In this document: positions 770 to 57,827 of the stretch, one piece after another
Layout of the letters: the number at the start of each line of letters is the position of its first letter
How positions within the stretch are numbered: the stretch's first letter is position 1
Translations under genes and position numbers: made by a program
Notes under the pieces: generated by a model
What the model saw: only the letters and a program-made list of their open reading frames with translations
What the model was told of the DNA's origin: nothing
Database searches by the model: none
Assembly: GCA_900316355.1 (NCBI GenBank)
Contig: ONCQ01000003.1
Coordinates: 6,113 to 70,112, forward strand
From: an uncultured Prevotellaceae bacterium
GTDB lineage: Bacteria > Bacteroidota > Bacteroidia > Bacteroidales > Bacteroidaceae
Direction: 5' to 3'
Length of the DNA stretch: 64,000 bases

Positions 770-788
770 CCCCCTCCCCAATTATACA

Positions 789-819
789 TTTCTTAACACA
801 TTTCATGCGCACACCGCAC
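789..819 (+). repeat. Copy 1 of a conserved ~30-bp motif, TTTCTTAACA(c/a)(a/t)TTTCATGCGCACACCGC
   Basis: Seen directly in the sequence. It sits 18 nt downstream of the minus-strand Fic stop codon, between convergent genes. Confidence 0.7.
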
Positions 820-4799: not shown

Positions 4800-4935
4800 A
4801 TTGAATTCTGTTTATCTAAATTCTGTTGATCTATTTGCCTGCAAAATTACACATTATTCCATTACGCCCGCACGAAACCTTCATTTTTTCATTGCCCACC
4901 TCTCTTTTTGAGTCACAACTCTCAGAATTTAAATA

Positions 4936-4965
4936 TTTCTTAACAATTTTCATGCGCACACCGCA
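4936..4965 (+). repeat. Copy 3 of the 30-bp motif
   Basis: Identical core TTTCTTAACAATTTTCATGCGCACACCGC. It lies just beyond the hairpin that follows the minus-strand VirE gene. Confidence 0.7.
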
Positions 4966-6727: not shown

Positions 6728-7384
6728 ATGAAGAAGACGCGGACAGTGTATAAACTCAAGAAGAAGGCGACGGTATCGCCTGAGGCGTTTATCCACGAAG
6801 TGGCCAAACGTCGTGGATCCAGCGAGTCGGTCATCTCGGGCGTACTGATGGACGTGGCAGATGAATTAGAGTATCTGCTGGGACAGGGCTACGGCGTCAC
6901 GCTCCCCGGCATCGGCACCTTCACGGTCGGCGTCCGCCTGAAGGAAGAGCGCAAGGAGCAGCTGGAAGAAGAGCAGGACGCTGCTGCTGAGGCTGCCGAG
7001 AGCGGAGGGAAGCCCAAGAAGGTGACGGAGCCCAATGCCCGCAACATAGAGCTCCACCACATCAACTACCGCAAGGACAAACACCTGTTCAGCAATGTGG
7101 CCTCGCGCTTGAATCGTGAGGAGAAACAGCGCATAGGAGGGCGTGAGGGCGTGCGCATCACCATCGACGATTCCTCGCAGAAGCAGCGCATTGCCGCTGC
7201 CCACGAGTTTCTGGAGACGCATTCCTTCATGCGCGTCAGCGACTATGCTGAAATCACAGGGCTGTCACGCTCCAGCGCCCAACGCGAGCTGCGCGAACTG
7301 GTGAAGTTCCAATATTCTGGCATCACCTGCCGGGGTCGGGGCAGCCATCGTGTCTTTGTGCGGTGTGCGCATGAAAAATGTTAA
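6728..7384 (+). CDS. HU-related (histone-like) DNA-binding protein, Bacteroidetes type
   Basis: N-terminus MKKTRTVYKLKKK and a GIGTFTV-type HU fold motif. The first Met of the ORF lies in an AT-rich leader, so the start was moved to the conserved Met. Confidence 0.65.
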   Translation: MKKTRTVYKLKKKATVSPEAFIHEVAKRRGSSESVISGVLMDVADELEYLLGQGYGVTLPGIGTFTVGVRLKEERKEQLEEEQDAAAEAAESGGKPKKVTEPNARNIELHHINYRKDKHLFSNVASRLNREEKQRIGGREGVRITIDDSSQKQRIAAAHEFLETHSFMRVSDYAEITGLSRSSAQRELRELVKFQYSGITCRGRGSHRVFVRCAHEKC

Positions 7385-7388
7385 TAAA
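7358..7388 (-). repeat. Copy 4 of the 30-bp motif, in inverted orientation, overlapping the HU-like stop codon
   Basis: GTGCGGTGTGCGCATGAAAAATGTTAATAAA. It encodes the last residues (VRCAHEKC*) of the HU-like gene. Confidence 0.65.
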
Positions 7389-7440
7389 TCTTTAATTTTA
7401 AAAAGTGGGGCAAAGCAGGTGGGCGTCTCGCAAGAAAATA

Positions 7441-8851: not shown

Positions 8852-9412
8852 TCACCAGCTGAGTGTGCGGGTGCCGTCGGGATTGGCGGTGATGTGCACG
8901 CGGAGCGTGTCATCGGGCAGCAGGTCCTCGATGAGTTCGGGCCATTCGATGAGGCACAGGTGGCCGCTGTAGAGGTAGTCCTCGAAGCCCATGTCATAGG
9001 CCTCCTCGATGCGCTTGATGCGATAGAAATCGAAGTGATAAATAGATGAATGCTCTTTGCGTTCGTCATTGACCTTCGGTCGAGCCTGCTCACGCTCGGG
9101 AAAGTTCAAGCAAGCTTGACTCTCCTCTCGCTTAATCGCAGCCTTCGTCATTCGTAACTCATCATTCGTCATTCGTAACTTGTCATTCACAGCGTATTCG
9201 TTGACGATGGCGAAGGTGGGGGAGGTGACCGGTTCGGTGACCCCCAGTTCGCGGCAAAGGGCTGCGATGAAGGTGGTCTTGCCGGCACCCATGGTGCCGT
9301 AGAAGGCAATGATGCGGCGGTCGCCTAAATTGGCGCGGAACTCACGGGCGGCTGCATCCAGCGCGTCTTCCGTGAAGGTGATGGAGGGTTTATTTTCTGT
9401 GGGTGAGGTCAT
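8852..9412 (-). CDS. tsaE: tRNA threonylcarbamoyladenosine biosynthesis protein TsaE, carrying an in-frame ~110-bp repeat-element insertion
   Basis: P-loop GTMGAGKTTF and the HFDFYR motif. About 43 extra residues lie between VNEY and IYHFDFYR, encoded by the repeat at 9056-9190. Confidence 0.8.
   Translation of the reverse strand: MTSPTENKPSITFTEDALDAAAREFRANLGDRRIIAFYGTMGAGKTTFIAALCRELGVTEPVTSPTFAIVNEYAVNDKLRMTNDELRMTKAAIKREESQACLNFPEREQARPKVNDERKEHSSIYHFDFYRIKRIEEAYDMGFEDYLYSGHLCLIEWPELIEDLLPDDTLRVHITANPDGTRTLSW
9056..9190. repeat. Repeat element inside tsaE coding sequence: a 76-bp core plus a CATTCGTAAC-type tandem array
   Basis: The core at 9071-9146 is 76/76 identical to 31113-31188. 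It is flanked by TTCGTCATT direct repeats. Confidence 0.85.
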
Positions 9413-9508
9413 AAATCTTTAATCTTTAATCTTGTTTCAGGCGGTCTCGTAATAACGTTATATCGTCATACCGTTATCTCGAAAAGAGTCTGGCCGCCAA
9501 CTATCAAT

Positions 9509-11143: not shown

Positions 11144-11280
11144 AAGATTCTTCGTTATCTCGTTATTCCGTTATTTCGTTATCTCGTTATTTCGTTATTC
11201 CGTTATTTCGACTCCCCCTCTCCGCAGGCTCTCCCCTCCCTCACGGGAGGGGTTGGGGGTGGGTCTAATACATCCAATCT
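11064..11280. repeat. Large palindromic element: ~46-bp inverted arms (GACCCACCCCCGACCCCTCCCGTGAGGGAGGGGAG...) around a CGTTATTTCG tandem array
   Basis: The left arm (11075-11125) and right arm (11221-11268) are reverse complements. The tandem array spans 11148-11215. Confidence 0.85.
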
Positions 11281-16263: not shown

Positions 16264-17043
16264 ATGTCCACTGTCATCTATCCTTCGCCTATCTTCGGGC
16301 CTGTACACAGCCGCCGCCTGGGCGTCTCACTCGGCATCAACCTGCTGCCTGCCGACGGCAAGGTCTGTTCGTTTGACTGTATCTATTGTGAATGCGGCCT
16401 CAACCGGGAGCGGCGCGCGAAGGAGAAGATGCCCACGCGCGAGGCGGTGCGCACGGCCTTGGAGGCGCGCCTGCAGCAGATGGCTGCCGAGGGACCTACG
16501 CCCGATGTGCTGACCTTTGCCGGCAATGGCGAGCCCACGTTGCATCCCGACTTCCCTGCTATCATTGAGGACACGCGCGTGCTGCGCGACCGTTACTGCC
16601 CCAAGGCGCGCATCAGTGTGCTGAGCAATGCCACGCAGATCCTGCGCCCCGATGTGTTCGCGGCGCTCTGTCGGGTGGATAACAACATCCTGAAATTAGA
16701 CACGGTGGACGCTGATTTCATTCGGCAGGTGGACTGTCCCACAGGGCATTATGCGGTGGAGGCGATTGTGGAAGGGCTCGCGCGCTTCCGCGGACATGCC
16801 ATCATCCAGACGATGTTCCTCACGGGAACCGATGCCCAAGGGAACACCGTGGACAACACGTCGGCGCACTATGTGACGCCCTGGCTGGAGGCGTTGCGCA
16901 TGATTGGTCCCGAGGCGGTGATGATCTACACCATAGACCGCGAGACGCCCGTCAGCACCCTGCGCAAAGCCGCGCCCGAAGTGTTGGATGCAATTGCAGA
17001 GCAGGTGCGCGCATTGGGCATCCGCTGCTCCGTGGCCTACTAA
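16264..17043 (+). CDS. Radical SAM protein (COG0731-like Fe-S oxidoreductase)
   Basis: CSFDCIYCEC cluster motif after a FGPVHSRRLGVSLGINLLP N-terminus. Confidence 0.7.
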   Translation: MSTVIYPSPIFGPVHSRRLGVSLGINLLPADGKVCSFDCIYCECGLNRERRAKEKMPTREAVRTALEARLQQMAAEGPTPDVLTFAGNGEPTLHPDFPAIIEDTRVLRDRYCPKARISVLSNATQILRPDVFAALCRVDNNILKLDTVDADFIRQVDCPTGHYAVEAIVEGLARFRGHAIIQTMFLTGTDAQGNTVDNTSAHYVTPWLEALRMIGPEAVMIYTIDRETPVSTLRKAAPEVLDAIAEQVRALGIRCSVAY

Positions 17044-17098
17044 CTCCTTGAACTTTTGAACTCCTTGAACTTTTGAACTCCTTGAACTCCTCAAACTC

Positions 17099-23531: not shown

Positions 23532-23589
23532 GAATTGAACATGGAGAGTTAAACTTTTGAACTTCTTAAACTTTTGAACTCTTAAACCC

Positions 23590-25389
23590 TTGAACTCCTG
23601 TTCTGCTTTTGATTGGAAAGGGCGCTATGAGGCGTTGCACGACTACTTCCCCAGCACGTACTACACACCCGTGATAGGCATCACGGGTAACTTCGGTGAG
23701 AAGGGTTGCGAGCTGGCAGAGGGCTACTATGAGAGCATCCTGCGGGCGGGGGCCACCCCCGTGGTGCTGCCGCCCACAGAAGATGCCGATGCGCTGTGCA
23801 CGATGCTCGACAGTATCGATGCCCTGGTGCTCTCGGGCGGCGGCGATATCAACCCGCTCTTCGCCGGCGAGGAACCTGTGCCACAGCTCCATAGCATCAA
23901 TCCCAAGCGCGACCTGTGCGAGCTGCTGCTCGTGCGCCTGGCCTACGACCGCCAGCTGCCCATGCTCGGCATCTGCCGCGGCATACAGGTGTTGGCCACC
24001 GCCCTCGACGGCAGCGTGTGGCAGGACATCGCCTCGCAGTTCAATCCCCCCGCGCTCATCAAGCACAGTCAGGATCTGGAGCGCAGCCGTGCCTCGCACA
24101 CCGTGGCGGTGGCCGAAGGGTCGCTGCTACAGCACATTATGGGTGTTGATACACTGTCTGTCAACAGCTTCCATCACCAGGCTGTGCGCGAGGCTGGCCC
24201 CCACCTGCGCGTCTGCGCCACAGCACCCGACGGCGTCATCGAAGCCGTGGAATCCACCGAGCATAAGAGCATCATTGGCGTGCAGTGGCACCCCGAATGC
24301 TTCTGTCTGGGTGGCGATGCGCGCATGATGCCGCTCTTCCGATGGCTGGCCGACGAGGCGGCCAACTACCGCGAGGCGCGCCGCATACACAGCCGCATCA
24401 TCACCCTCGACAGCCATTGCGACACGCCGATGTTCTTCGATCAGGACATCCACTTCGACCAGCGCGACCCCAAGATACTCGTGGACTTGCATAAGATGCG
24501 CGAGGGAGGTTTGGATGCCAGCACCATGGTGGCCTACATCCCCCAGGGACCGCTCACTGATGAAGGGCGCGCCGCTGCCACCGCCTATGCCGACAGCCAG
24601 CTCTCCCGCGTGGAGAAGATGGTCGAGGCGAATGCGGCAGCCGTGGGCATGGCCTATGATGTCAAGGACCTCCATCGCCTGAAGGCTGAGGGGCGCAAGG
24701 CCATCATGCTCGGCATCGAGAACGGCTATGCCATCGGTCGCGACATCCATCTGTTGGAGCGTTTCCAGAAGAAGCACGGCATCGTCTATATGACGCTCTG
24801 CCACAACGGCAACAACGATATCTGCGGTTCCGCACGTCCGCGTGAGGGTGAGCAGCTGATGGGCGTCACAGACTTCGGTGCCGACGTCATTCGTGAGATG
24901 AACCGCCTCGGCATCCTCGTGGACCTCTCCCACGGCAGCGAGCGCAGCTTCTACGATGCCCTGGACATCAGCACCAAGCCCATCGTGTGCTCCCACTCCT
25001 CATGCCGCGCCCTCTGCGACCATCCCCGCAACCTCACCGATGACCAGCTGCGCGCCCTCGCCGCCAAAGGCGGTGTGGCACAGGTCACCTTCTACAGCGG
25101 TTTCCTGCGCACCGACGGGCAGGCCAGTATCCTGGATGCAGTGGCCCATCTCAACCACATGGTGCAGGTGATGGGCATCGAGCATGTGGGCATCGGCACT
25201 GACTTCGACGGCGACGGCGGTGTCCCCGGCCTCGCCTCTGCCGCAGAACTCATCAACTTCACCCGCCGCCTGTTGCGCGAGCACTACAGCGAGGCGGACC
25301 TCCGCCTTATCTGGGGCGGCAACTGGATGCGCTGTGTAAGTGAAATGCCCCCGAGCCCCCTAAAGGGGAGCGTAGGGAGTGAAAAGTGA
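23590..25389 (+). CDS. Fusion protein: class-I glutamine amidotransferase-like (C26, PuuD-like) domain plus M19 membrane dipeptidase domain
   Basis: GATase catalytic region (GICRGIQVL...WHPE) followed by a renal-dipeptidase-family region (LCHNGNNDI...DLSHGSE...GIGTDFDGDGG). The last ~15 residues (EMPPSPLKGSVGSEK*) are encoded by a repeat element. Confidence 0.7.
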   Translation: MNSCSAFDWKGRYEALHDYFPSTYYTPVIGITGNFGEKGCELAEGYYESILRAGATPVVLPPTEDADALCTMLDSIDALVLSGGGDINPLFAGEEPVPQLHSINPKRDLCELLLVRLAYDRQLPMLGICRGIQVLATALDGSVWQDIASQFNPPALIKHSQDLERSRASHTVAVAEGSLLQHIMGVDTLSVNSFHHQAVREAGPHLRVCATAPDGVIEAVESTEHKSIIGVQWHPECFCLGGDARMMPLFRWLADEAANYREARRIHSRIITLDSHCDTPMFFDQDIHFDQRDPKILVDLHKMREGGLDASTMVAYIPQGPLTDEGRAAATAYADSQLSRVEKMVEANAAAVGMAYDVKDLHRLKAEGRKAIMLGIENGYAIGRDIHLLERFQKKHGIVYMTLCHNGNNDICGSARPREGEQLMGVTDFGADVIREMNRLGILVDLSHGSERSFYDALDISTKPIVCSHSSCRALCDHPRNLTDDQLRALAAKGGVAQVTFYSGFLRTDGQASILDAVAHLNHMVQVMGIEHVGIGTDFDGDGGVPGLASAAELINFTRRLLREHYSEADLRLIWGGNWMRCVSEMPPSPLKGSVGSEK

Positions 25390-25440
25390 ATAATGAAGAA
25401 TGAAAAATGAAAAGTGAAGAATGAAAAGTGAAAAATTAGA
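25342..25440. repeat. Palindromic core GAAATGCCCCCGAGCCCCCTAAAGGGGAGCGTAGGGAG plus a GAAAAGTGAA-type tandem array
   Basis: The core recurs at 41170, 45623 and 31230 (rc). The tandem array spans 25380-25440. Confidence 0.85.
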
Positions 25441-26564: not shown

Positions 26565-27077
26565 ATGCAAGATTATAATGATACTACGCGCCAGTCCTCC
26601 CCCTCTTCGACAGAGAAGGGGGTGGGGCGTGAGTCCATCGACTCCCTCCAAGACGAGATTATCGAGGAATTCAACGACTTCGATGACTGGATGGACAAAT
26701 ACCAGCTCCTCATCGACCTCGGCAACGACCAACAGCCGCTGCCCGAGAGCGCCAAGACGGAGCAGAACCTCATCGACGGCTGTCAGAGCCGCGTATGGCT
26801 CACAGCCACGCTGACGTCCGACGGCCTCGTGCACTTCGAGGCGGAGAGCGACGCCCTCATCGTGAAGGGCATCGTCACGCTCCTCATCCGCGTCCTCAGC
26901 GACCACACGCCGCAGGAGATTCTCGATGCCGACCTCTACTTCATCGAGCGCATCGGCCTCCGCGAACACCTCTCACCCACCCGCAGCAATGGCCTCCTCG
27001 CCATGCTCAAGCAGATGAAAATGTATGCCCTCGTTTACAACGAAGTGAAAAATGATGGAGTGAAAAGTGAAAAATGA
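26565..27077 (+). CDS. sufE: SufE-like cysteine desulfuration / Fe-S assembly protein
   Basis: SufE domain with the conserved Cys in QLIDGCQSRVWL. The C-terminal ~12 residues are encoded by a tandem-repeat array. Confidence 0.7.
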   Translation: MQDYNDTTRQSSPSSTEKGVGRESIDSLQDEIIEEFNDFDDWMDKYQLLIDLGNDQQPLPESAKTEQNLIDGCQSRVWLTATLTSDGLVHFEAESDALIVKGIVTLLIRVLSDHTPQEILDADLYFIERIGLREHLSPTRSNGLLAMLKQMKMYALVYNEVKNDGVKSEK

Positions 27078-27094
27078 AAAGTGAATAATGAAAG

Positions 27095-30362: not shown

Positions 30363-31010
30363 ATGTTCACAACTATCACCAACTGGTACGCCGGCTTGGA
30401 CGCCACGATGCAGATCTTCTGGGCGTGCGCCATCGCTGCCAGTGTTGTCTTCATCATTCAGAACGCCCTCATGCTCTTGGGCCTTGGTGGCATGGATGCC
30501 GATGTAGATGCCGATGTCAGCACCGACTTCGATGTCCATGCCGACGGCGATGCTGATGTCTCCACGGGTCACAGCGGCCACGAGGGCACACTCGGTTCTG
30601 CCGGCATCTTCTCGCTGTTCACGCTGCGCAACTTCATCAACTTCTTCCTCGGCTTCGGATGGGGCGGCATCAGCCTGGCGCCCGTCGTCCACAGCAAGGC
30701 CCTCCTTGTGTTGTTGAGCTTCGCGATTGGCGTCCTCTTCGTCGCCGTCTTCGCTGTGCTGATGCGCATGATGCTGAAGCTGGAGAAGAGCGGCAACTTC
30801 AAGATCCAGGACTGCGTCGGTCAGACCGCCAGCGTCTATCTCCGCATCCCCGGCAACCACAGCGGCGCCGGTAAGGTGCAGATTAGCATCCACGGCTCCG
30901 TGTATGAGCTCAACGCCTTCACCGACAGCCCCGAGCAACTCGCCACTGGCAGCCGCGTGAAAGTCATCGATATCATCGACAGCGGCAGCCTGCTCGTCAG
31001 CCCGCTCTAA
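30363..31010 (+). CDS. NfeD-like membrane protein (OB-fold C-terminus); flotillin partner
   Basis: TM N-terminus plus a C-terminal beta-rich OB domain, adjacent to an SPFH/flotillin gene. Confidence 0.65.
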   Translation: MFTTITNWYAGLDATMQIFWACAIAASVVFIIQNALMLLGLGGMDADVDADVSTDFDVHADGDADVSTGHSGHEGTLGSAGIFSLFTLRNFINFFLGFGWGGISLAPVVHSKALLVLLSFAIGVLFVAVFAVLMRMMLKLEKSGNFKIQDCVGQTASVYLRIPGNHSGAGKVQISIHGSVYELNAFTDSPEQLATGSRVKVIDIIDSGSLLVSPL

Positions 31011-31019
31011 GCCTTTGGC

Positions 31020-31300
31020 TGTTGGCTTTTGGCTTTTGGCTTTTGGCCTTTGGCACTCATCATTAGTAATTTTTATTTTTCACTTATCACTTATCACTCA
31101 TCACTCATCATTGACCTTCGGTCGAGCCTGCTCACGCTCGGGAAAGTTCAAGCAAGCTTGACTCTCCTCTCGCTTAATCGCAGCCTTCATCACTCGTCAT
31201 TCGTCATTCATCATTATTATTTTTCACTTTTCCCTCCCTACGCTCCCCTTTAGGGGGCTCGGGGGCATTTGAACTCTTGAACTCTTGAACTTTTTGAACT
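31020..31300. repeat. Composite repeat cluster: GGCTTTTGGC and CACTTATCA tandem arrays, the 76-bp core identical to the tsaE insert, an inverted PPSPLKG core, and a TTGAACTCTTGAAC array
   Basis: Direct reading. 31113-31188 equals 9071-9146. 31230-31270 is the reverse complement of the 25342 core. Confidence 0.85.
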
Positions 31301-31307
31301 ATACATT

Positions 31308-32693
31308 ATGGAACTCTACGTTATCGTTGTAGCGGCACTCGTTGCCTTCTTCCTTGTGGTAGCCATTTTCAACCGCTACCGTCGTTGTCCTTCGGACAAG
31401 ATTCTTGTTATCTACGGCACCAGCGCCGCCAAGGGCTCTGCCAAGTGCGTGCACGGTGGTGGTACCTTCGTGTGGCCCATCATTCAGGACTATGCCTACA
31501 TGAGCCTCACGCCCATCTCCATTGACGCCAACCTCACCAACGCCCTGTCGCGCCAGAACATCCGCGTCGATGTGCCCTGCCGCTTCACGGTGGGTATCTC
31601 CACGGAGCCCGACTACATGCAGGCTGCCGCCGAGCGTCTGCTGGGTCAGACCCCGCAGCAGATCCAGGAGCTCGCGCGCGACATCCTCTTCGGCCAGCTG
31701 CGTCTCGTCATCGCCACCATGTCCATCGAGGAGCTCAACTCCGACCGCGACAAGTTCTTGGAGGCCATCTCCACCAATGTCGAGGTAGAGCTCAAGAAGA
31801 TAGGTCTGCGCCTCATCAACGTCAACGTCACCGACATCAAGGACGAGAGCGGCTACATCGAAGCCCTCGGTCGCGAGGCTGCCGCCAAGGCCATCAACGA
31901 AGCCAAGGTGCGCGTCGCCGAACAGGATAAGATTGGTGAGATTGGTAAGGCCGAGGCCGTCCGTGAGACCCGCGTGCGCACCGCCGAGGCCAACGCCCAG
32001 GCCGTGAAGGGCGAGAACGAGGCCAAGGTCGAGATAGCCAACTCCGAGGCCTACCGCCGCGAGAAGGAAGCCGAGGCCCAGCGCAAGGCGCAAGCCGCCG
32101 AGAAGGTGCAGGCCGCCAAGGCCCTCGAGGAAGCCTACGCCGCCGAGCAGCTCGCCGAGACCGCCCGTGCCGAGCGTGAGCGCGCCACCGAGACCGCCAA
32201 TGTCATCGTGCAGCAGGAGATTGAGAAGCAGCGCCTCATCATCGCCGCCGAGGCCGAAGCCGAGCAGAAGCGCGCCATCGCCAAGGGTGAGGCCGACGCC
32301 GTCTTCGCCAAGATGGAAGCCGAGGCAAAGGGTCTCTTCGAGGTGCTGACGCGTCAGGCACAAGGTTACGACAAGATGGTGCAGGCCGCTGGTGGCGACG
32401 CCACCGCCGCCTACTCCCTCCTCCTCCTTGAGAAGCTCCCCGAGCTCGTCAAGACACAGGTCGAGGCCATCAAGGGCATCAACATCGACAAGGTCACCGT
32501 CTGGGACAGCGGCGCTGCCGGTGCCGACGGCAAAGGCTCCACGGCCGGTTTCGTCAGCGGTCTCATGAAGAGCATACCCCCTCTCAACGACCTCTTCGAG
32601 CAGGCCGGCCTCAGCATCCCCGAGTACCTCGCCAAGAAGAAAGCCGAGCGCGATGCCGATGCCGCTGCTGCCGCTGCCGACGTCGAGGAATGA
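31308..32693 (+). CDS. Flotillin-like SPFH/band-7 protein
   Basis: N-terminal TM, SPFH domain, and an extended EA-rich coiled coil (AEAEAQRKAQAAEKVQAAKALEEAYAAEQ). Confidence 0.85.
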   Translation: MELYVIVVAALVAFFLVVAIFNRYRRCPSDKILVIYGTSAAKGSAKCVHGGGTFVWPIIQDYAYMSLTPISIDANLTNALSRQNIRVDVPCRFTVGISTEPDYMQAAAERLLGQTPQQIQELARDILFGQLRLVIATMSIEELNSDRDKFLEAISTNVEVELKKIGLRLINVNVTDIKDESGYIEALGREAAAKAINEAKVRVAEQDKIGEIGKAEAVRETRVRTAEANAQAVKGENEAKVEIANSEAYRREKEAEAQRKAQAAEKVQAAKALEEAYAAEQLAETARAERERATETANVIVQQEIEKQRLIIAAEAEAEQKRAIAKGEADAVFAKMEAEAKGLFEVLTRQAQGYDKMVQAAGGDATAAYSLLLLEKLPELVKTQVEAIKGINIDKVTVWDSGAAGADGKGSTAGFVSGLMKSIPPLNDLFEQAGLSIPEYLAKKKAERDADAAAAAADVEE

Positions 32694-32717: not shown

Positions 32718-33929
32718 ATGAGACGTCGTAAAGCACAGCGCACCAACCAGGCCATCATGCGGGGCGTCATCGCCATGGCCCTCCTCGTGCTCCTTGTGGC
32801 CTACCTCTTCCTCACCATGGTGTCCTGCACACAGTCCCCCCGCGGGGTACCCGTGCAGGGCACCATCAGCGATGCCCCCGACTCCACCCTCGTCCTCGAG
32901 GCCATGACGCTGCGTGGCGTGCAGCCCCTCGACTCCGTGCGGCTGTCCGCCGACGGCACCTTCTCCTTCGCCGTCCCCGCCGACAGTGCCTCCATCCCCG
33001 AGTTCTACCGCCTCCGCATCGCCCGTCGCGTCATCAACTTCGTCATCGACAGCCTCGCCCCCGTGACCATTGAGGCCCCCTATGCCCGCATGTCCACCCA
33101 CTACGACATCCACGGCAATGCCGCCTCGCGCATGATGAAGACCATCTCGCTCCTCAACATCCAGCTGCAGCAGCGCCTCCACGTCCTGCAGTCCGACAGC
33201 GCCCTCTCCGCCCTCGAGAAGAGCGAGCGCGCCCAGCAGCTCGTCGATGCCTACAAGCAGACCCTCAAGGGCGACTACATCCTCAAGGCCCCCGCCTCCG
33301 CTGCCGCCTACTTCGCCCTCTTCCAGACCATCGGCCATCAGATGCTCTTCAACCCCGAGGATGACCGCTCCGACATCCAGTTCTTCGCCGCCGTGGCCAC
33401 GCAGTGGGACCAACTCCACCCCCATCACCCCCGCACCGAGAACCTGAAGAACATCGCCCTCCGCGGCCTCCGCAACACCCGTCAGCCCCGCGCCGTGGAG
33501 CTGCAGGTCGATGGCGAGCGCGTCCGTGAGGTCGGCATCATCGACTTCGGCTTCCCCGACATCCGCGGCCGTGAGCGTCGCCTCAGCGACTTCGGCGACA
33601 ATGTCGTGCTCCTCGACTTCACCGCCTACAGCCTCCCTCGCAGCCAGCAGCGCAACATCGAGCTCCGCGAGCTCTATGCCGCCTACCATGCCCGCGGCCT
33701 CGAGATCTACCAAGTCTCCCTCGACGCCGACGAGCACTTCTGGAAGACCATGTGCGAACAGCTGCCGTGGGTCTGCGTCTCATGCCCAGAAGGCGGTGAT
33801 AATGATATGGTTAAGCTCTACAATGTCATGCAGCTCCCCACCACCTTCCTCATCGGTCGTGGCTCCGAGCTCCGCACCCGTATAGCCGACTTCGCCGACC
33901 TCCGCAAGGCCATCGAAGCAGAATTGTAG
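32718..33929 (+). CDS. Thioredoxin-fold TlpA/AhpC-like thiol-disulfide oxidoreductase with an N-terminal DUF4369-like domain
   Basis: Signal/TM N-terminus. The C-terminal thioredoxin-like domain has a CxxC motif (WVCVSCPEGGD). Confidence 0.6.
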   Translation: MRRRKAQRTNQAIMRGVIAMALLVLLVAYLFLTMVSCTQSPRGVPVQGTISDAPDSTLVLEAMTLRGVQPLDSVRLSADGTFSFAVPADSASIPEFYRLRIARRVINFVIDSLAPVTIEAPYARMSTHYDIHGNAASRMMKTISLLNIQLQQRLHVLQSDSALSALEKSERAQQLVDAYKQTLKGDYILKAPASAAAYFALFQTIGHQMLFNPEDDRSDIQFFAAVATQWDQLHPHHPRTENLKNIALRGLRNTRQPRAVELQVDGERVREVGIIDFGFPDIRGRERRLSDFGDNVVLLDFTAYSLPRSQQRNIELRELYAAYHARGLEIYQVSLDADEHFWKTMCEQLPWVCVSCPEGGDNDMVKLYNVMQLPTTFLIGRGSELRTRIADFADLRKAIEAEL

Positions 33930-34077
33930 GCGTCATAAGTCATTTTCTTGTCAAAACATTTGGTGCGAATCACTTTTCCGCTTATCTTTGCACCGCCGTT
34001 CTGAAGAAAGGGTTCCGCGATAACAAGCGGAGCTCTTTTCCTTTTCTGTCTGTCTTCACAGCAGAACATTGAACTTT

Positions 34078-34133
34078 GGGAGCAGCGAGAGCAATCAAGC
34101 TCGCTTGAATTGCCGAGTCGCGACAAAAGTCAG
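34078..34133. repeat. Left arm of a ~56-70 bp inverted repeat flanking greA
   Basis: GGAGCAGCGAGAGCAATCAAGCTCGCTTGAATTGCCGAGTCGCGACAAAAGTCAGC is the reverse complement of 34756-34811 at about 51/56 positions. Confidence 0.8.
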
Positions 34134-34190
34134 CAAAGCTGAACTATTAAACTTTTGAACCCTTGAACTATTAAACTCAGCAAACATATA

Positions 34191-34661
34191 ATGGCTTACA
34201 TGACACAGAAGGGCTACGACAAGCTCGTAGCCGAGCTCCAGCATCTCGAAGCTGTTGAGCGCCCCAAGGCTTCTGCAGCCATCGCCGAAGCCCGCGACAA
34301 GGGCGACCTCAGCGAAAATGCAGAGTACGACGCTGCCAAGGAGGCACAAGGTCTGCTCGAAATGAAGATCACACAGCTCAAGGCCACCATCGCCGACGCC
34401 AAGATCATCGACACCAGCAAGCTCAACGCCGACACCGTGCAGATCCTCACCCGCGTAGAACTCAAGAACGTGAAGAACAACGCCAAGATGTCCTACACCA
34501 TCGTCAGCGAGACCGAGGCCAACCTGCGCGAAGGTAAGATCAGCGTCAAGACCCCCATCGCCCAAGGACTCCTTGGCCGCAAGGTCGGCGACATCGTCGA
34601 TATCCGCGTGCCCCAAGGCATGATCCAGCTCGAAATCCTCCACATCAGCTACGAGGAATGA
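34191..34661 (+). CDS. greA: Transcription elongation factor GreA
   Basis: MTQKGYDKLVAELQHLE...DLSENAEYDAAKE...GKISVKTPIAQGLLGRKVGD. Confidence 0.9.
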   Translation: MAYMTQKGYDKLVAELQHLEAVERPKASAAIAEARDKGDLSENAEYDAAKEAQGLLEMKITQLKATIADAKIIDTSKLNADTVQILTRVELKNVKNNAKMSYTIVSETEANLREGKISVKTPIAQGLLGRKVGDIVDIRVPQGMIQLEILHISYEE

Positions 34662-34755
34662 AGGCCAGAGGCCTGATTCATGGTTCAGGATTCAGGATTC
34701 ATGGTTCAGGATTCAGGATTCATGGTTTCAAGTTTCATGATTCGTCATTAACTTC

Positions 34756-34811
34756 GTTGACTTTTGTCACGACTCGGCAATTTAAGCAAGCTTAATTGCT
34801 CTCGCTGCTCC
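34756..34811. repeat. Right arm of the inverted repeat flanking greA
   Basis: See 34078-34133. A GGATTCAGGATTCATGG tandem array (34670-34745) lies just inside this arm. Confidence 0.8.
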
Positions 34812-34836
34812 AAAAGTTCGTAATTCCCCATTTCCC

Positions 34837-35235
34837 GTGAGTATTTTCAGTAAAATTGCCGCTGGCGAGATACCCAGCTACTGCTGCGCCAGCAACGAGG
34901 AGTTCTATGCCTTCCTCGACATCAACCCCCTGGTGAAGGGTCACACCCTCGTCATCCCCCGTCGCGAAGTCGATTACATCTTCGACCTCACCGACGAAGA
35001 GCTCGGCCGCCTGCACATCTTCGCCGCCCATGTGGCGCGTGCCATCAAGGCCGTCATCCCCTGCGTCAAGGTCGGCCAGGCCGTCCTCGGCCTCGAAGTG
35101 CCCCACGCCCACATCCATCTCATCCCCATGCAGAGCGAGAAAGACATGCTCTTCTCCAACCCCAAGCTCCAGCTCCCTGCCGATGAGATGCAAGCCGTCG
35201 CCGACGCCATCCGCGCCGAGTTCGACAAACAATAA
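34837..35235 (+). CDS. HIT-family (histidine triad) nucleotide hydrolase
   Basis: HAHIHLIP histidine-triad motif. Confidence 0.85.
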   Translation: MSIFSKIAAGEIPSYCCASNEEFYAFLDINPLVKGHTLVIPRREVDYIFDLTDEELGRLHIFAAHVARAIKAVIPCVKVGQAVLGLEVPHAHIHLIPMQSEKDMLFSNPKLQLPADEMQAVADAIRAEFDKQ

Positions 35236-37804: not shown

Positions 37805-38521
37805 ATGAAGATAGCACTCATCGGCTACGGTAAAATGGGCCACATGATAGAGCAGATAGCTCTGGAGCGCGGACACGACATCGTGTGCCGCATCGACATC
37901 GATAACCCTCAGGACTTCGAGAGCGCGGCGTTCCGCAGCGCTGACGTGGCGATAGAGTTCACGGCTCCCACGGTGGCCTACGGCAACGTGCAGCGGGCGT
38001 TTGCGGCGGGCGTGAAGGTGGTGTCGGGCAGCACGGGGTGGTTTGCACAGCATGAGGCTGAGGTGCGCCGGCAGTGTGAGGCGGAGGGCAGGACGCTGTT
38101 CTGGGCCTCGAACTTCTCGGTCGGCGTGGCCATCTTCGGCGCCGTGAACCGCTACCTGGCACGCATCATGAATGGGTTCCCACAGTATGACGTGGAGATG
38201 GAGGAGACGCACCATGTGCATAAGCTGGACCACCCGAGCGGCACGGCGATCACGCTGGCAGAGGATATCGTCAGCGAACTGGACCGCAAGGAGGCGTGGG
38301 CCGAGGATACGACAGATCCGAAGCTGCTGCGCATCGACAACATCCGACGGGGTGAGGTGCCGGGGATTCACACGGTGCGCTACGACAGCGAGGCGGACCT
38401 GATAACAATCACGCATGATGCGCACTCGCGCAAGGGCTTCGCACTGGGGGCAGTGCTGGCGGCGGAATATACGGCCGAGCACAGCGGACTGCTGAGCATG
38501 GGGGATTTGTTTTCATTTTAA
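37805..38521 (+). CDS. dapB: 4-hydroxy-tetrahydrodipicolinate reductase
   Basis: MKIALIGYGKMG NAD-binding N-terminus and the EETHHVHKLDHPSGTA catalytic region. Confidence 0.85.
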   Translation: MKIALIGYGKMGHMIEQIALERGHDIVCRIDIDNPQDFESAAFRSADVAIEFTAPTVAYGNVQRAFAAGVKVVSGSTGWFAQHEAEVRRQCEAEGRTLFWASNFSVGVAIFGAVNRYLARIMNGFPQYDVEMEETHHVHKLDHPSGTAITLAEDIVSELDRKEAWAEDTTDPKLLRIDNIRRGEVPGIHTVRYDSEADLITITHDAHSRKGFALGAVLAAEYTAEHSGLLSMGDLFSF

Positions 38522-38670
38522 GGAGTTAAGAAGTTAAGGAGTTAAGAAGTTAAGGAGTTAAGGAGTTAAGACGAATGCTTTGCCACTGATAATACTTTGC
38601 ACGAGTAATGTCTTAACTTCTGCCCGAAGGGCGAGCGAAGCGATAACTCCTTGAACTCCTTAACTCCCCC
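38520..38670. repeat. GGAGTTAAG / TTGAACTCCTTAAC tandem arrays flanking a GCCCGAAGGGC hairpin
   Basis: Direct reading of the dapB-lepB intergenic region. Confidence 0.7.
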
Positions 38671-40149: not shown

Positions 40150-40235
40150 GGCCCCCTGTGGTCCCCCAAGGGGGACAATTGAGAATTGAAAATTGAAAAT
40201 TGAGAATTGGGGAATGGTAAGAATTGAGGAATCGT
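40150..40235. repeat. GGCCCCCTGTGGTCCCCCAAGGGGGAC palindrome plus a TTGAGAATTGAAAATTG tandem array
   Basis: Direct reading. It overlaps the ORF-track N-terminus of ung. Confidence 0.7.
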
Positions 40236-40873: not shown

Positions 40874-41565
40874 ACCAGATTCCTATCTTAGAAGTCGGCG
40901 GTGTGCTGATCAGCACTCAGATCCTCACCGAACGTTTCTGCTGCGACCTCGAAGCCTGCGGCGGCGCCTGCTGCGTGGAGGGCGATGCTGGCGCACCGGT
41001 CACGCTGGATGAAGTCGGCGAGATAGAGGCGGCGCTGGATGCGGCGTGGCCGTATATGTCGGCCACGGCACAGAGCGTGGTGGATAAACAGGGCGTTGCC
41101 TACACGGATGTGGAGGGCGACTTGGTCACGAGTATCGTGAACGGCAAAGATTGTGTGTTTACGTTCTACGAAATGCCCCCGAGCCCCCTAAAGGGGAGCG
41201 TAAATAGCCAAGAGCCAAGAGCTAAGAGCCAAGCGCCAAGTGCCAACAGCCAAGAGCCAGCAGCCAAAACCTGTTGTCTGTGTGCGCTGGAGGCGGCATG
41301 CAGGGCGGGGAAGAGTAGGTTCATGAAGCCCATCTCATGCGCGCTCTATCCCATCCGCGAGAAGCGTTTCGGCGGTGGCCTGGTGGGCCTCAACTATCAC
41401 CGCTGGGCCATTTGCGAGGGAGCGCGCAAGCGGGGACAGGAGCTGGACCTGCCGCTCTACCGTTTCCTGCGCGAGCCGCTGATACGGCGCTTCGGCGAGG
41501 CGTGGTACAAAGAGTTGTGTGAGGTGGCGGAGGAACTGAAAAGAGCGGAGCGAGACCGCCCATAA
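40867..41565 (+). CDS. Cysteine-rich conserved protein (DUF3109-like) carrying an in-frame repeat-element insertion
   Basis: CCDLEACGGACC...CCLCALE...CALYPIR cysteine pattern. Residues EMPPSPLKGSVNSQEPRAKSQAPSANSQEPAAKT are encoded by the palindromic core plus an AGCCAAGAGCC tandem array. Confidence 0.5.
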   Translation: MVNQIPILEVGGVLISTQILTERFCCDLEACGGACCVEGDAGAPVTLDEVGEIEAALDAAWPYMSATAQSVVDKQGVAYTDVEGDLVTSIVNGKDCVFTFYEMPPSPLKGSVNSQEPRAKSQAPSANSQEPAAKTCCLCALEAACRAGKSRFMKPISCALYPIREKRFGGGLVGLNYHRWAICEGARKRGQELDLPLYRFLREPLIRRFGEAWYKELCEVAEELKRAERDRP

Positions 41566-45606: not shown

Positions 45607-45622
45607 GAGAGTTTATTTTTTT

Positions 45623-45700
45623 AAGCCCCCGAGCCCCCTGAAGGGGAGCGTAGGGAGGGAAGAGGGAGGAGGGACAATGACGAATGCCAATGCCAAGAGC
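45623..45700. repeat. Copy of the GCCCCCGAGCCCCCTGAAGGGGAGCGTAGGGAGGG core plus a GGGAGG / GCCAATGCCAAG array
   Basis: Direct reading, upstream of purE. Confidence 0.8.
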
Positions 45701-49630: not shown

Positions 49631-49638
49631 ACGCCCTG

Positions 49639-49712
49639 CGCTCCAGGATGGGCTTGAACCAACGACCCCCTGATTAACAGTCAGGTGCTCTAACCAACTG
49701 AGCTACTGAAGC
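49639..49712 (-). tRNA. tRNA-Asn (anticodon GUU), copy 1
   Basis: Hand fold. Acceptor GCTTCAG/CTGGAGC, D-arm GCTC-AGTTGGTTA-GAGC, anticodon arm CCTGA-CTGTTAA-TCAGG, T-arm with one mismatch, discriminator G. Confidence 0.8.
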
Positions 49713-49764
49713 AGTTACATCGCCCTCGGGAGGGCCCCCTCGGGAATGGCTCTTCTGAGTCTTG

Positions 49765-49838
49765 CGCTCCAGGATGGGCTTGAACCAACGACCCCCTGAT
49801 TAACAGTCAGGTGCTCTAACCAACTGAGCTACTGAAGC
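49765..49838 (-). tRNA. tRNA-Asn (anticodon GUU), copy 2, identical to copy 1
   Basis: Same 74-nt sequence repeated 126 bp upstream. Confidence 0.8.
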
Positions 49839-50924: not shown

Positions 50925-50995
50925 TATAACGGAATTACGGAACTACGGAATTACGGAATTACGGAACTAACGAAATTACGTTATTACGAAAAAGC
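50925..50995. repeat. GGAATTACGGAACTACG tandem array
   Basis: Direct reading, in the intergenic region downstream of the PfkB gene. Confidence 0.7.
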
Positions 50996-57219: not shown

Positions 57220-57330
57220 GTGATAGAATCTTATGGAACATTTTATTGTCCAATACGCGGTAGCTATAATATTCATTACGACTTCGGTGTGGATATGCTA
57301 AGACTGCTAGTGGACGTGGAATCCTGATGA
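57220..57330 (+). pseudogene. Degenerate copy of a 46-aa zinc-ribbon mini-ORF
   Basis: About 85% identical at DNA level to 57687-57827. It has a GTG start, CPIRGS instead of CPICGS, and two 1-bp deletions that shift the frame before the second CxxC. Confidence 0.5.
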
Positions 57331-57686: not shown

Positions 57687-57827
57687 ATGATAGAATCTTA
57701 TGGAACATTTTACTGTCCGATATGCGGCAGCTATAATATTCAGTATGATTTCGGCATGCTGATATGCCAAGACTGCCTGTGGACATGGAATCCTGATGAG
57801 GAAGAACAGCAATTATTGATAGACTAA
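57687..57827 (+). CDS. 46-aa zinc-ribbon mini-protein (CPICG...CQDC), below the cutoff of the ORF track
   Basis: Reads MIESYGTFYCPICGSYNIQYDFGMLICQDCLWTWNPDEEEQQLLID*. The two CxxC pairs are spaced 14 residues apart. Confidence 0.45.
   Translation: MIESYGTFYCPICGSYNIQYDFGMLICQDCLWTWNPDEEEQQLLID

What the first reader, a model, noticed from the sequence alone, without database searches (positions are those of the whole stretch)
34078..34811. greA sits on a ~730-bp segment bracketed by near-perfect ~56-70 bp inverted repeats
The arms 34078-34133 and 34756-34811 are reverse complements at about 91% identity. The similarity extends further (GAACTTT(G/T)GGAGCAGC). Each arm has a tandem array just inside it: CTGAACTATTAAAC and GGATTCAGGATTCATGG. 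Inverted repeats that bracket an entire gene are the architecture of invertible DNA switches, although no recombinase is adjacent. It may instead be two oppositely oriented copies of the mobile repeat family. Either way, it is a recombination substrate around a transcription factor gene.
Basis: seen in the sequence. Interest (0 to 1): 0.55.

Follow-up and report, generated by a model that had tools for sequence, protein, structure and literature searches.

The report
Two hairpin repeat copies flanking greA
The inverted repeat around greA is real, but it is two separately inserted, oppositely oriented copies of a small hairpin-forming repeat that is scattered through related gut Bacteroidales genomes, not a programmed DNA switch.

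Summary
Arms 34071-34138 and 34752-34819 are 68 nt and 90% complementary, and each has a short-period tandem array on its inner side. The invertible-switch reading is not supported. A 20-base core of the arm hits 83 metagenome stretches (97 instances). They define a ~72-nt hairpin element with four compensatory base pairs, about 93% intergenic, usually set among 7-nt tandem arrays. Each arm is closer to copies at other loci (72/72 and 69/72) than to the other arm (63/72). Among close relatives, 13 contigs carry both arms, 9 carry only the right arm, and 17 or more carry none. A sister strain with near-identical flanks lacks exactly 78 nt at the left-arm site. greA has the same orientation in every contig inspected, and no arm is chimeric. 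No recombinase was found within ±10 kb or among the ORFs scanned elsewhere in the window. Both arms lie in the probable greA-HIT transcript. They could form local hairpins or a 63-bp RNA duplex; this is inferred, not tested. The family is not in Rfam and was not found in the literature searched. Modest interest.

The parts
34071..34138 (+). Left arm: a sense-oriented copy of the ~72-nt hairpin repeat (covariance-model hit 34069-34142). It lies in the greA 5' leader, 52 nt upstream of the ATG.
   Evidence: 99.4 bits. Absent in sister strain L088.
34071..34148 (+). The 78 nt present here but missing at the otherwise near-identical site in L088 (empty site GAACATT^AAACTTTTGAAC). The insert ends in GAACTATT, a near-duplicate of the preceding GAACATT, so a ~7-nt target duplication is possible.
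34752..34819 (-). Right arm: an antisense-oriented copy of the same repeat family but a different subfamily (covariance-model hit 34748-34821). It lies in the greA-HIT spacer and ends 18 nt before the HIT start.
   Evidence: 101.7 bits. 72/72 identical to the L160 copy at another locus.
34142..34177 (.). Short-period (8 nt; TGAAC/TTAAAC-type) tandem array between the left arm and the greA start.
   Evidence: An 8-nt unit (34161-34168) is extra relative to L088.
34675..34743 (.). Heptamer (7/21-nt period) tandem array between the greA stop and the right arm. Its copy number varies between strains (spacer 154/175/183/199 nt).
34191..34661 (+). greA, intact, at its ancestral position (thioredoxin-like gene, greA, HIT).
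33959..33990 (+). Bacteroidetes-type promoter consensus TTTG-N20-TATCTTTG, outside the inverted repeat. It is conserved in relatives.
   Evidence: regex plus comparison of 26 loci; consensus from established knowledge of Bacteroides promoters
34006..34050 (+). greA leader stem-loop followed by a T-run (terminator/attenuator-like), upstream of the left arm.
34837..35235 (+). HIT-family gene, probably co-transcribed with greA.
   Evidence: The spacer is only 30-72 nt in relatives.
31111..31190 (-). Divergent member of the same structural superfamily (same fold, different stems).
   Evidence: 37.5 bits, E 3e-7
9069..9148 (-). Second divergent superfamily member, 94% identical to the copy at 31111-31190.
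   Evidence: 36.2 bits

Best explanation
The bracket around greA is an accident of two independent insertions of a small, non-coding, hairpin-forming dispersed repeat of the MITE/REP type. The element is about 72 nt long. It has a 21-pair interrupted stem with conserved internal loops (GCGAGAG / CCGAG) and a 3-bp mini-hairpin with a GAA loop. It sits in intergenic DNA, typically inside or next to 7-nt tandem arrays. The right-hand copy, antisense to greA, entered the greA-HIT spacer first. The left-hand copy, from a different subfamily and in sense orientation, entered the greA 5' leader later, in one lineage only. Shown here: that the arms belong to the family, that the family is dispersed, the covariation, the presence/absence polymorphism, and the single orientation. 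Inferred: the element spreads by some form of transposition or templated copying into heptamer arrays. Also inferred: each copy is transcribed as part of the greA-HIT mRNA, where it forms a hairpin that may affect processing or stability. The gene is not flipped.
For: (1) The 20-base core GAGCAGCGAGAGCAATNAAGC hits 83 metagenome stretches and 97 instances, where only a few are expected by chance. The rest of the 72 nt is conserved around it.
(2) 36 distinct full copies show 99% of cells paired. Compensatory changes occur at four pairs: 10-57 UA19/CG16, 28-39 CG28/UG4/UA4, 65-71 GC28/AU6/GU2, 66-70 CG33/UA2. All slid-register controls collapse.
(3) winR is 72/72 identical to the L160 copy and winL is 69/72 identical to L122, but winL and winR match at only 63/72.
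(4) A covariance model finds two more divergent copies in the window, at 31111-31190 and 9069-9148.
(5) L088, with near-identical flanks, lacks exactly 78 nt at the left-arm site.
(6) A model scan of 38 related greA loci gives 13 contigs with both arms, 9 with only the right arm, and L184, L196-L203 and L089-L095 with none.
(7) 78 of 84 distinct copies are intergenic. Between co-directional genes the ratio is 30 sense to 10 antisense.
(8) A copy's own 5' and 3' flanks share heptamer units: 3.8 shared 6-mers against 1.5 for unrelated pairs.
Against: No transposase or other mobilising enzyme was identified. The target-site duplication rests on a single filled/empty pair and is imperfect (GAACATT / GAACTATT). 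The family was ascertained with an exact 20-mer, so conservation of columns 12-32 is forced and copy numbers per genome are unknown. High sequence conservation plus covariation could instead mean a host-selected functional RNA rather than a selfish element. A second lineage (L093-L095) also has greA flanked by unrelated 99-143-nt inverted repeats. That hints the arrangement might not be pure chance.
Confidence: 0.83

Rival explanations
1. Programmed invertible switch (inverton). A site-specific recombinase acting in trans flips the 34139-34751 segment. This disconnects greA from the promoter at 33959-33990, which lies outside the inverted repeat, and turns greA off.
For: An inverted-repeat pair brackets the gene. 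The likely promoter lies outside the arms, so inversion would have a phenotype. Bacteroidales invertases can act at a distance, and one B. thetaiotaomicron genome encodes 56 invertases (PMC10028968).
Against: All 13 conspecific contigs inspected show one orientation, and all 9 right-arm-only relatives agree. The arms are never chimeric. The arms are members of a family with more than 80 loci that does not normally occur as gene-flanking inverted pairs; all 6 same-locus non-tandem pairs seen are direct. The left arm is absent in sister strains. No recombinase lies within ±10 kb or among the scanned ORFs. At 68 nt the arms are much longer than typical invertase inverted repeats (my knowledge).
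Confidence: 0.03
2. The pair acts at the RNA level. Both arms are on one greA-HIT transcript and anneal into a ~63-bp double-stranded clamp that loops out the greA ORF. RNase III cleaves the clamp, as it does the processing stems flanking rRNAs. This separates greA from its leader and from HIT, or changes its half-life.
For: The promoter and leader are upstream of the left arm. The greA-HIT spacers are short in relatives, which suggests an operon. The predicted duplex is -105 kcal/mol, against -18.4 and -16.2 for the two local hairpins. In the MFE of the 840-nt transcript, 63 nt of the left arm pair with the right arm. Correia elements in Neisseria mRNAs are RNase III substrates (PMC2649163).
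Against: There are no expression data. Each arm folds locally as soon as it is transcribed, so the long-range duplex may be kinetically inaccessible. The arrangement is confined to one lineage and the sister lineages do without it. The window's left arm carries a derived T-to-G change that weakens its own stem and adds a mismatch to the inter-arm duplex. This gives no sign of selection on pairing.
Confidence: 0.1
3. Rare RecA-dependent homologous recombination between the arms inverts greA at low frequency. This would be an unprogrammed structural polymorphism.
For: 68 nt at 90% identity in inverted orientation, 613 nt apart.
Against: The longest perfect block is 17 nt (alignment, rows winL and winR). 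That is below the minimal efficient processing segment known for E. coli (my knowledge). No inverted assembly and no chimeric arm was seen in 13 contigs. Inversion would cut an important housekeeping gene off from its promoter and would be selected against (inference).
Confidence: 0.04

Closest known systems
Correia repeat-enclosed elements (CREE/NEMIS) of Neisseria
   Same: Small (70-157 bp), non-coding and dispersed. They are mostly intergenic and often 5' of genes, and show presence/absence differences between strains. Their ends are self-complementary, so the transcribed element forms an mRNA hairpin (PMC2649163).
   Different: There is no sequence relationship. CREE insert at TA/CA, whereas this family sits in 7-nt tandem arrays. 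RNase III and IHF binding and promoter creation are demonstrated for CREE and untested here. The host phylum differs.
REP/BIME and ERIC(IRU) elements of enterobacteria
   Same: Imperfect palindromes in transcribed intergenic spacers of operons. Here copies lie close to the upstream stop codon (typically tens of nt). There is an orientation bias relative to transcription (30:10), stems are maintained by compensatory change, and clustered or tandem arrangements occur (period 76-77 nt in L120, L126, L129, L164).
   Different: REPs are shorter (~35 nt), carry a 5' GTAG motif and are tied to RAYT transposases (my knowledge). No GTAG is present, and RAYT association could not be tested. ERIC is longer (127 bp). 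Embedding in heptamer arrays is not a REP/ERIC trait.
Bacteroidales invertons (invertible promoters, PhaseFinder/PhaVa class)
   Same: A pair of inverted repeats brackets a few hundred bp in a Bacteroidales genome.
   Different: Invertons show both orientations within populations and depend on invertases (PMC10028968). Here only one orientation is seen, no invertase is nearby, the arms are copies of a dispersed repeat, and the bracket is missing in sister strains.
BrickBuilt / MITE239 composite repeats of Porphyromonas gingivalis
   Same: Bacteroidales intergenic repeats that combine a MITE-like unit with short tandem repeats (from memory; related repeat issues are discussed in PMC5771137, found but not read).
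   Different: Different sequences and unit sizes (a 23-bp minisatellite inside the MITE). No homology was tested.

Membership tests
Invertible DNA switch (inverton) | A pair of inverted repeats flanking the segment | tested here: met
   68 nt, 90%
Invertible DNA switch (inverton) | Both orientations present in natural populations | tested here: not met
   13 of 13 distinct conspecific contigs, and all relatives, show one orientation. Assemblies show only the majority state, so a rare subpopulation is not excluded.
Invertible DNA switch (inverton) | A site-specific recombinase (serine or tyrosine invertase), usually nearby | tested here: not met
   None within ±10 kb (Pfam annotation of L179). 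None among 29 further window ORFs scanned. An invertase acting in trans from elsewhere in the genome cannot be tested.
Invertible DNA switch (inverton) | The inverted-repeat bracket is conserved at the orthologous locus in relatives | tested here: not met
   Right arm only in 9 contigs. No arm in L184, L196-L203 or L089-L095. No inverted repeat in ~80 Bacteroidota greA loci.
MITE-like small dispersed repeat | Short, non-coding, many dispersed copies | tested here: met
   72-78 nt; 97 instances and 84 distinct sites in metagenome contigs; 4 superfamily copies in the window
MITE-like small dispersed repeat | Terminal inverted repeats / self-complementary ends | tested here: met
   Outer stem ACUUUYG/CRAAAGU, 7 pairs, covarying
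MITE-like small dispersed repeat | Insertion polymorphism between close strains | tested here: met
   Filled versus empty site, window against L088; lineage distribution
MITE-like small dispersed repeat | Target-site duplication | tested here: inconclusive
   One filled/empty pair: GAACATT ... GAACTATT. Flanks of a copy share heptamer units, but the 7-nt periodicity makes the boundaries ambiguous.
MITE-like small dispersed repeat | A parent autonomous element or transposase with matching ends | not testable with these tools
   No transposase in the window. The whole genome is not available. No hit in viral contigs.
REP/REPIN | Conserved 5' GTAG and association with a RAYT gene | tested here: not met
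   No GTAG at the element ends (alignment A4). RAYT presence in the genome is untestable.
Curated structured RNA family (Rfam) | Match to an Rfam covariance model | tested here: not met
   No hit on the arms at gathering threshold or at E up to 10

The most novel reading that the evidence does not exclude
The 72-nt element may not be merely selfish DNA. It could be a host-used structured RNA module of gut/rumen Bacteroidales operons, for example a protein- or RNase-recognition hairpin. Its features fit this: conserved internal loops, a GAA-loop mini-hairpin, G·U pairs on one strand only, and a 3:1 sense bias. At greA, a sense/antisense pair would then create a 63-bp dsRNA clamp that puts a transcription-fidelity factor under RNase III-type processing control, on top of a conserved leader attenuator.
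Probability: 0.1. Interest if true: 0.55.

Novelty: new member of a known kind. Interest (0 to 1): 0.27.

Why it matters
For the finding as posed, the result is a useful negative. Inverted repeats that bracket a gene in these genomes can be by-products of dispersed hairpin repeats, and sequence-only inverton predictors will flag them falsely. The repeat family itself has strong covariation, is not in Rfam, and was not found in the literature searched. With its heptamer arrays it makes up a large part of the intergenic DNA in this lineage. That makes it a handle on how Bacteroidales intergenic regions evolve, and possibly on mRNA processing in a phylum where post-transcriptional control is poorly mapped.

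Tried and rejected
- Sigma-70 promoter scan: not appropriate for Bacteroidetes, so it was replaced by the TTTG-N19-21-TAnnTTTG consensus.
- Intrinsic-terminator reading of the arms: rejected, because no T-run follows either arm on either strand.
- Local duplication of one arm: rejected, because each arm is closer to copies elsewhere than to the other arm.
- Conserved regulatory palindrome or operator for greA: rejected, because the sequence occurs next to many unrelated genes and is absent from orthologous greA loci.
- greA as a transposed cassette with the arms as terminal inverted repeats: rejected, because the thioredoxin-greA-HIT order is ancestral in relatives that have no arms.
- Phage or viral origin: no hits in viral contigs.
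- Literature search by sequence strings and by keywords found no description of the family.
- nhmmer with the two arms alone barely detected the divergent copies (E 0.08). The covariance model was needed to find them.
- The genome-contig scan returned nothing closer than 82% GreA identity, so close relatives had to be reached through exact-protein look-ups.

Full report
**Observation**

The inverted repeat exists and is slightly larger than reported. The arms are 34071-34138 and 34752-34819, 68 nt, 61/68 complementary, with 613 nt between them. It is the longest inverted repeat in the window. It is not a chance match. There is no third copy at up to 3 mismatches, and 0 matches were found in 100 shuffles. 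BLAST of flank against flank gives E = 9e-21. The arrays just inside each arm are real: an 8-nt period at 34142-34177 and a 7/21-nt period at 34675-34743. greA (34191-34661, +) is intact, with both GreA/GreB domains. Each arm is itself an imperfect palindrome that folds into a hairpin of -16 to -19 kcal/mol.

**Setting**

The gene order is flotillin-like, thioredoxin-like (32718-33929), greA, HIT (34837-35235), and dprA on the opposite strand. This order is shared with relatives whose GreA is 85-96% identical, so greA is at its ancestral place.

A perfect Bacteroidetes-type promoter (TTTG-N20-TATCTTTG, 33959-33990) is followed by a stem-loop plus T-run (34006-34050). Both are conserved, with compensatory stem changes, in close and distant Bacteroidota.

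The left arm therefore lies in the greA 5' leader, downstream of that attenuator-like hairpin. The right arm lies in the greA-HIT spacer. That spacer is only 30-72 nt in relatives without repeats, which suggests an operon. This is an inference.

**The arms are members of a dispersed family**

A scan of public metagenome contigs with a 20-base core of the arm returned 83 stretches and 97 instances. Around the core the remaining ~50 nt are also conserved.

Thirty-six distinct full-length copies align without gaps, with 94% mean column identity. A hairpin model with 24 pairs is 99% paired across them. Compensatory changes occur at four pairs:
- 10-57: UA 19, CG 16
- 28-39: CG 28, UG 4, UA 4
- 65-71: GC 28, AU 6, GU 2
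- 66-70: CG 33, UA 2

Every slid register drops to 20-45% paired. The wobble pairs are G·U on the GAACUUU... strand only, so the element has a preferred strand.

A covariance model built from this alignment finds four copies in the window. Two are the arms (about 100 bits each). Two are divergent copies at 31111-31190 and 9069-9148 (about 37 bits, E ~5e-7). These have the same fold but different stem sequences.

No Rfam family matches the arms, even at E up to 10. No paper in the library contains the sequence.

**Context of the family**

With crude ORF calls, 78 of 84 distinct copies are intergenic. Between co-directional genes, 30 are sense and 10 antisense. Many sit a few tens of nt from the upstream stop codon or the downstream start codon.

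Copies are usually embedded among 7-nt tandem arrays whose unit differs from site to site but matches on the two sides of a given copy. Own flanks share 3.8 6-mers on average, against 1.5 for unrelated pairs.

Variants include:
- tandem arrays of the whole element, with a 76-77 nt period;
- copies with extra modules inserted in the 3' half;
- truncated copies;
- the inner hairpin alone in spacers of tRNA clusters.

**The two arms are independent insertions**

The right arm is 72/72 identical to the L160 copy at another locus. The left arm is 69/72 identical to L122. The two arms match each other at only 63/72.

In L088 (GreA 96% identical, upstream spacer almost base-for-base identical) exactly 78 nt (34071-34148) are missing. 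The empty site reads GAACATT^AAACTTTTGAAC. The insert ends in GAACTATT, which is a possible ~7-nt target duplication.

A model scan of 38 related greA loci gives this distribution:
- 13 distinct contigs with window-identical GreA carry both arms (left +, right -).
- 9 contigs of a sister lineage (L088, L188-L195) carry only the right arm, some with an additional ~34-nt module.
- L184, L196-L203 and L089-L095 carry none.

The right arm is therefore older and the left arm is lineage-specific.

Some strains keep ACTTTTGG in the left arm. The window's ACTTTGGG is a derived change that breaks pair 10-57. The heptamer array next to the right arm varies among strains, giving spacers of 154, 175, 183 or 199 nt.

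**Inverton test**

greA has the same orientation relative to both neighbours in every contig whose sequence I inspected: 13 conspecific contigs plus all relatives. Further contigs were collapsed by the tool as 'similar', and their orientation was not checked. The arms never exchange their private SNPs.

No recombinase or transposase domain occurs within ±10 kb or among 29 other window ORFs scanned. About 80 other Bacteroidota greA loci have no flanking inverted repeat.

Assemblies report only the majority orientation, so a rare flipped subpopulation cannot be excluded without reads.

**How it most likely works**

- Shown: the arms are a dispersed, structurally constrained, insertion-polymorphic hairpin repeat.
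- Inferred: it spreads as a non-autonomous element into heptamer-array DNA. It is tolerated mainly in transcribed spacers in the sense orientation, where it forms an mRNA hairpin, as REP, ERIC or Correia elements do (PMC2649163).
- At greA the two copies would be on one transcript. Thermodynamically they prefer a 63-bp inter-arm duplex (-105 kcal/mol) to the two local hairpins (-18.4 and -16.2). In the MFE of the 840-nt transcript, 63 nt of the left arm pair with the right arm. Whether this forms in vivo, or is cut by RNase III, is untested.

**A caveat worth recording**

In another lineage (L093-L095, GreA 91%) greA is also flanked by inverted repeats of 99-143 nt at 91-96% identity. They are built from unrelated repeat modules. 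The left copies there lie upstream of the greA promoter.

I read this as a sign that the spacers around greA are repeat-accepting DNA in this clade, rather than selection for a bracket. I did not test that statistically.

**Verdict**

The invertible-switch interpretation is not supported. The alternative, opposed copies of a mobile repeat, is supported.

The repeat family appears undescribed but belongs to a known kind, the small palindromic intergenic repeats. Interest is modest.

Noticed in passing
window 33959-34050; also L010, L011, L013, L015, L016, L024, L031, L034, L043, L088-L094, L184 upstream of greA: greA is preceded by a consensus Bacteroidetes promoter. About 15-35 nt downstream of it lies a conserved stem-loop plus T-run (GGGTTCY...RGRAYTCTTTT) whose upper stem covaries across families from Bacteroidaceae to Alistipes and Carboxylicivirga. 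It looks like a leader terminator/attenuator, analogous to E. coli GraL (PMC2836576, PMC6829880). greA leaders were reported from Proteobacteria to Clostridia (PMC2965389), but Bacteroidetes is not mentioned there. No Rfam family matches it.
   Followed up: partly
window 9144-9188, 9414-9433, 11151-11210, 17042-17091, 23549-23597, 25380-25436, 27043-27093, 31014-31054, 31080-31110, 31269-31300, 38518-38570, 40177-40209, 41206-41267, 50929-50988: Most intergenic regions of this genome contain tandem arrays with a 7-8-nt period. The units differ from site to site (TGAAAAG, TTGAACT, TTTGGCT, TCACTCA, AGCCAAG, TTAAGGAG, ACGGAATT and others), and arrays often lie right before start codons. Copy number varies between strains at the greA locus. 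Intergenic heptamer arrays of a single unit (TAACTGA) have been described in Beggiatoaceae, cyanobacteria and a few Bacteroidetes (PMC4679880). The multi-unit version here seems different.
   Followed up: partly
window 25342-25399, 31219-31270, 41170-41227, 45620-45677: This is another dispersed repeat (AAATGCCCCCGAGCCCCCTAAAGGGGAGCGTA...), up to 100% identical between copies. It is present in both orientations and is again adjacent to heptamer arrays. The spacer 30980-31308 is a mosaic of at least two repeat families and four arrays.
   Followed up: no
window 11078-11119/11225-11266 and 14562-14602/14652-14692: There are two close inverted-repeat pairs of a G/C-rich motif (GACCCACCCCC...CCTCCC...GGGAGGGG). 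They are 41-42 nt long, 93-95% complementary, and 49-105 nt apart. This is a further hairpin repeat family.
   Followed up: no
window 780-819, 1992-2028, 4926-4965, 7358-7398: A 33-40-nt motif (ATTTCTTAACAATTTTCATGCGCACACCGC) occurs four times, once inverted. It lies in a region encoding Fic, an ECF sigma factor, a VapE-like protein, HU-HIG and a BspA-type LRR protein. It could be a shared regulatory site or a remnant of a mobile island.
   Followed up: no
L093 1600-3850, L094 1700-3900: In a related species (GreA 91%), greA is flanked by unrelated inverted repeats of 99-143 nt (91-96% identity) plus several shorter direct and inverted repeats. The intergenic spacers are swollen to 740-880 and 440-500 nt.
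   Followed up: partly
L149 2115-2373, L158 3512-3782, L165 2456-2879: The inner hairpin of the repeat (GAGCAGCGAGAGCAATCAAGC.AGCTTGAATTGCCGAGTCGC), with different outer flanks, occupies the spacers between tRNA genes, antisense to the tRNAs.
   Followed up: no
window 49638-49712 and 49764-49838: There are two identical tRNA-Asn(GTT) genes in tandem, 126 nt start to start.
   Followed up: no
window 57221-57287 and 57688-57754: A 67-nt direct repeat, 90% identical, 467 nt apart, lies in a region without long ORFs. Its nature is unknown.
   Followed up: no
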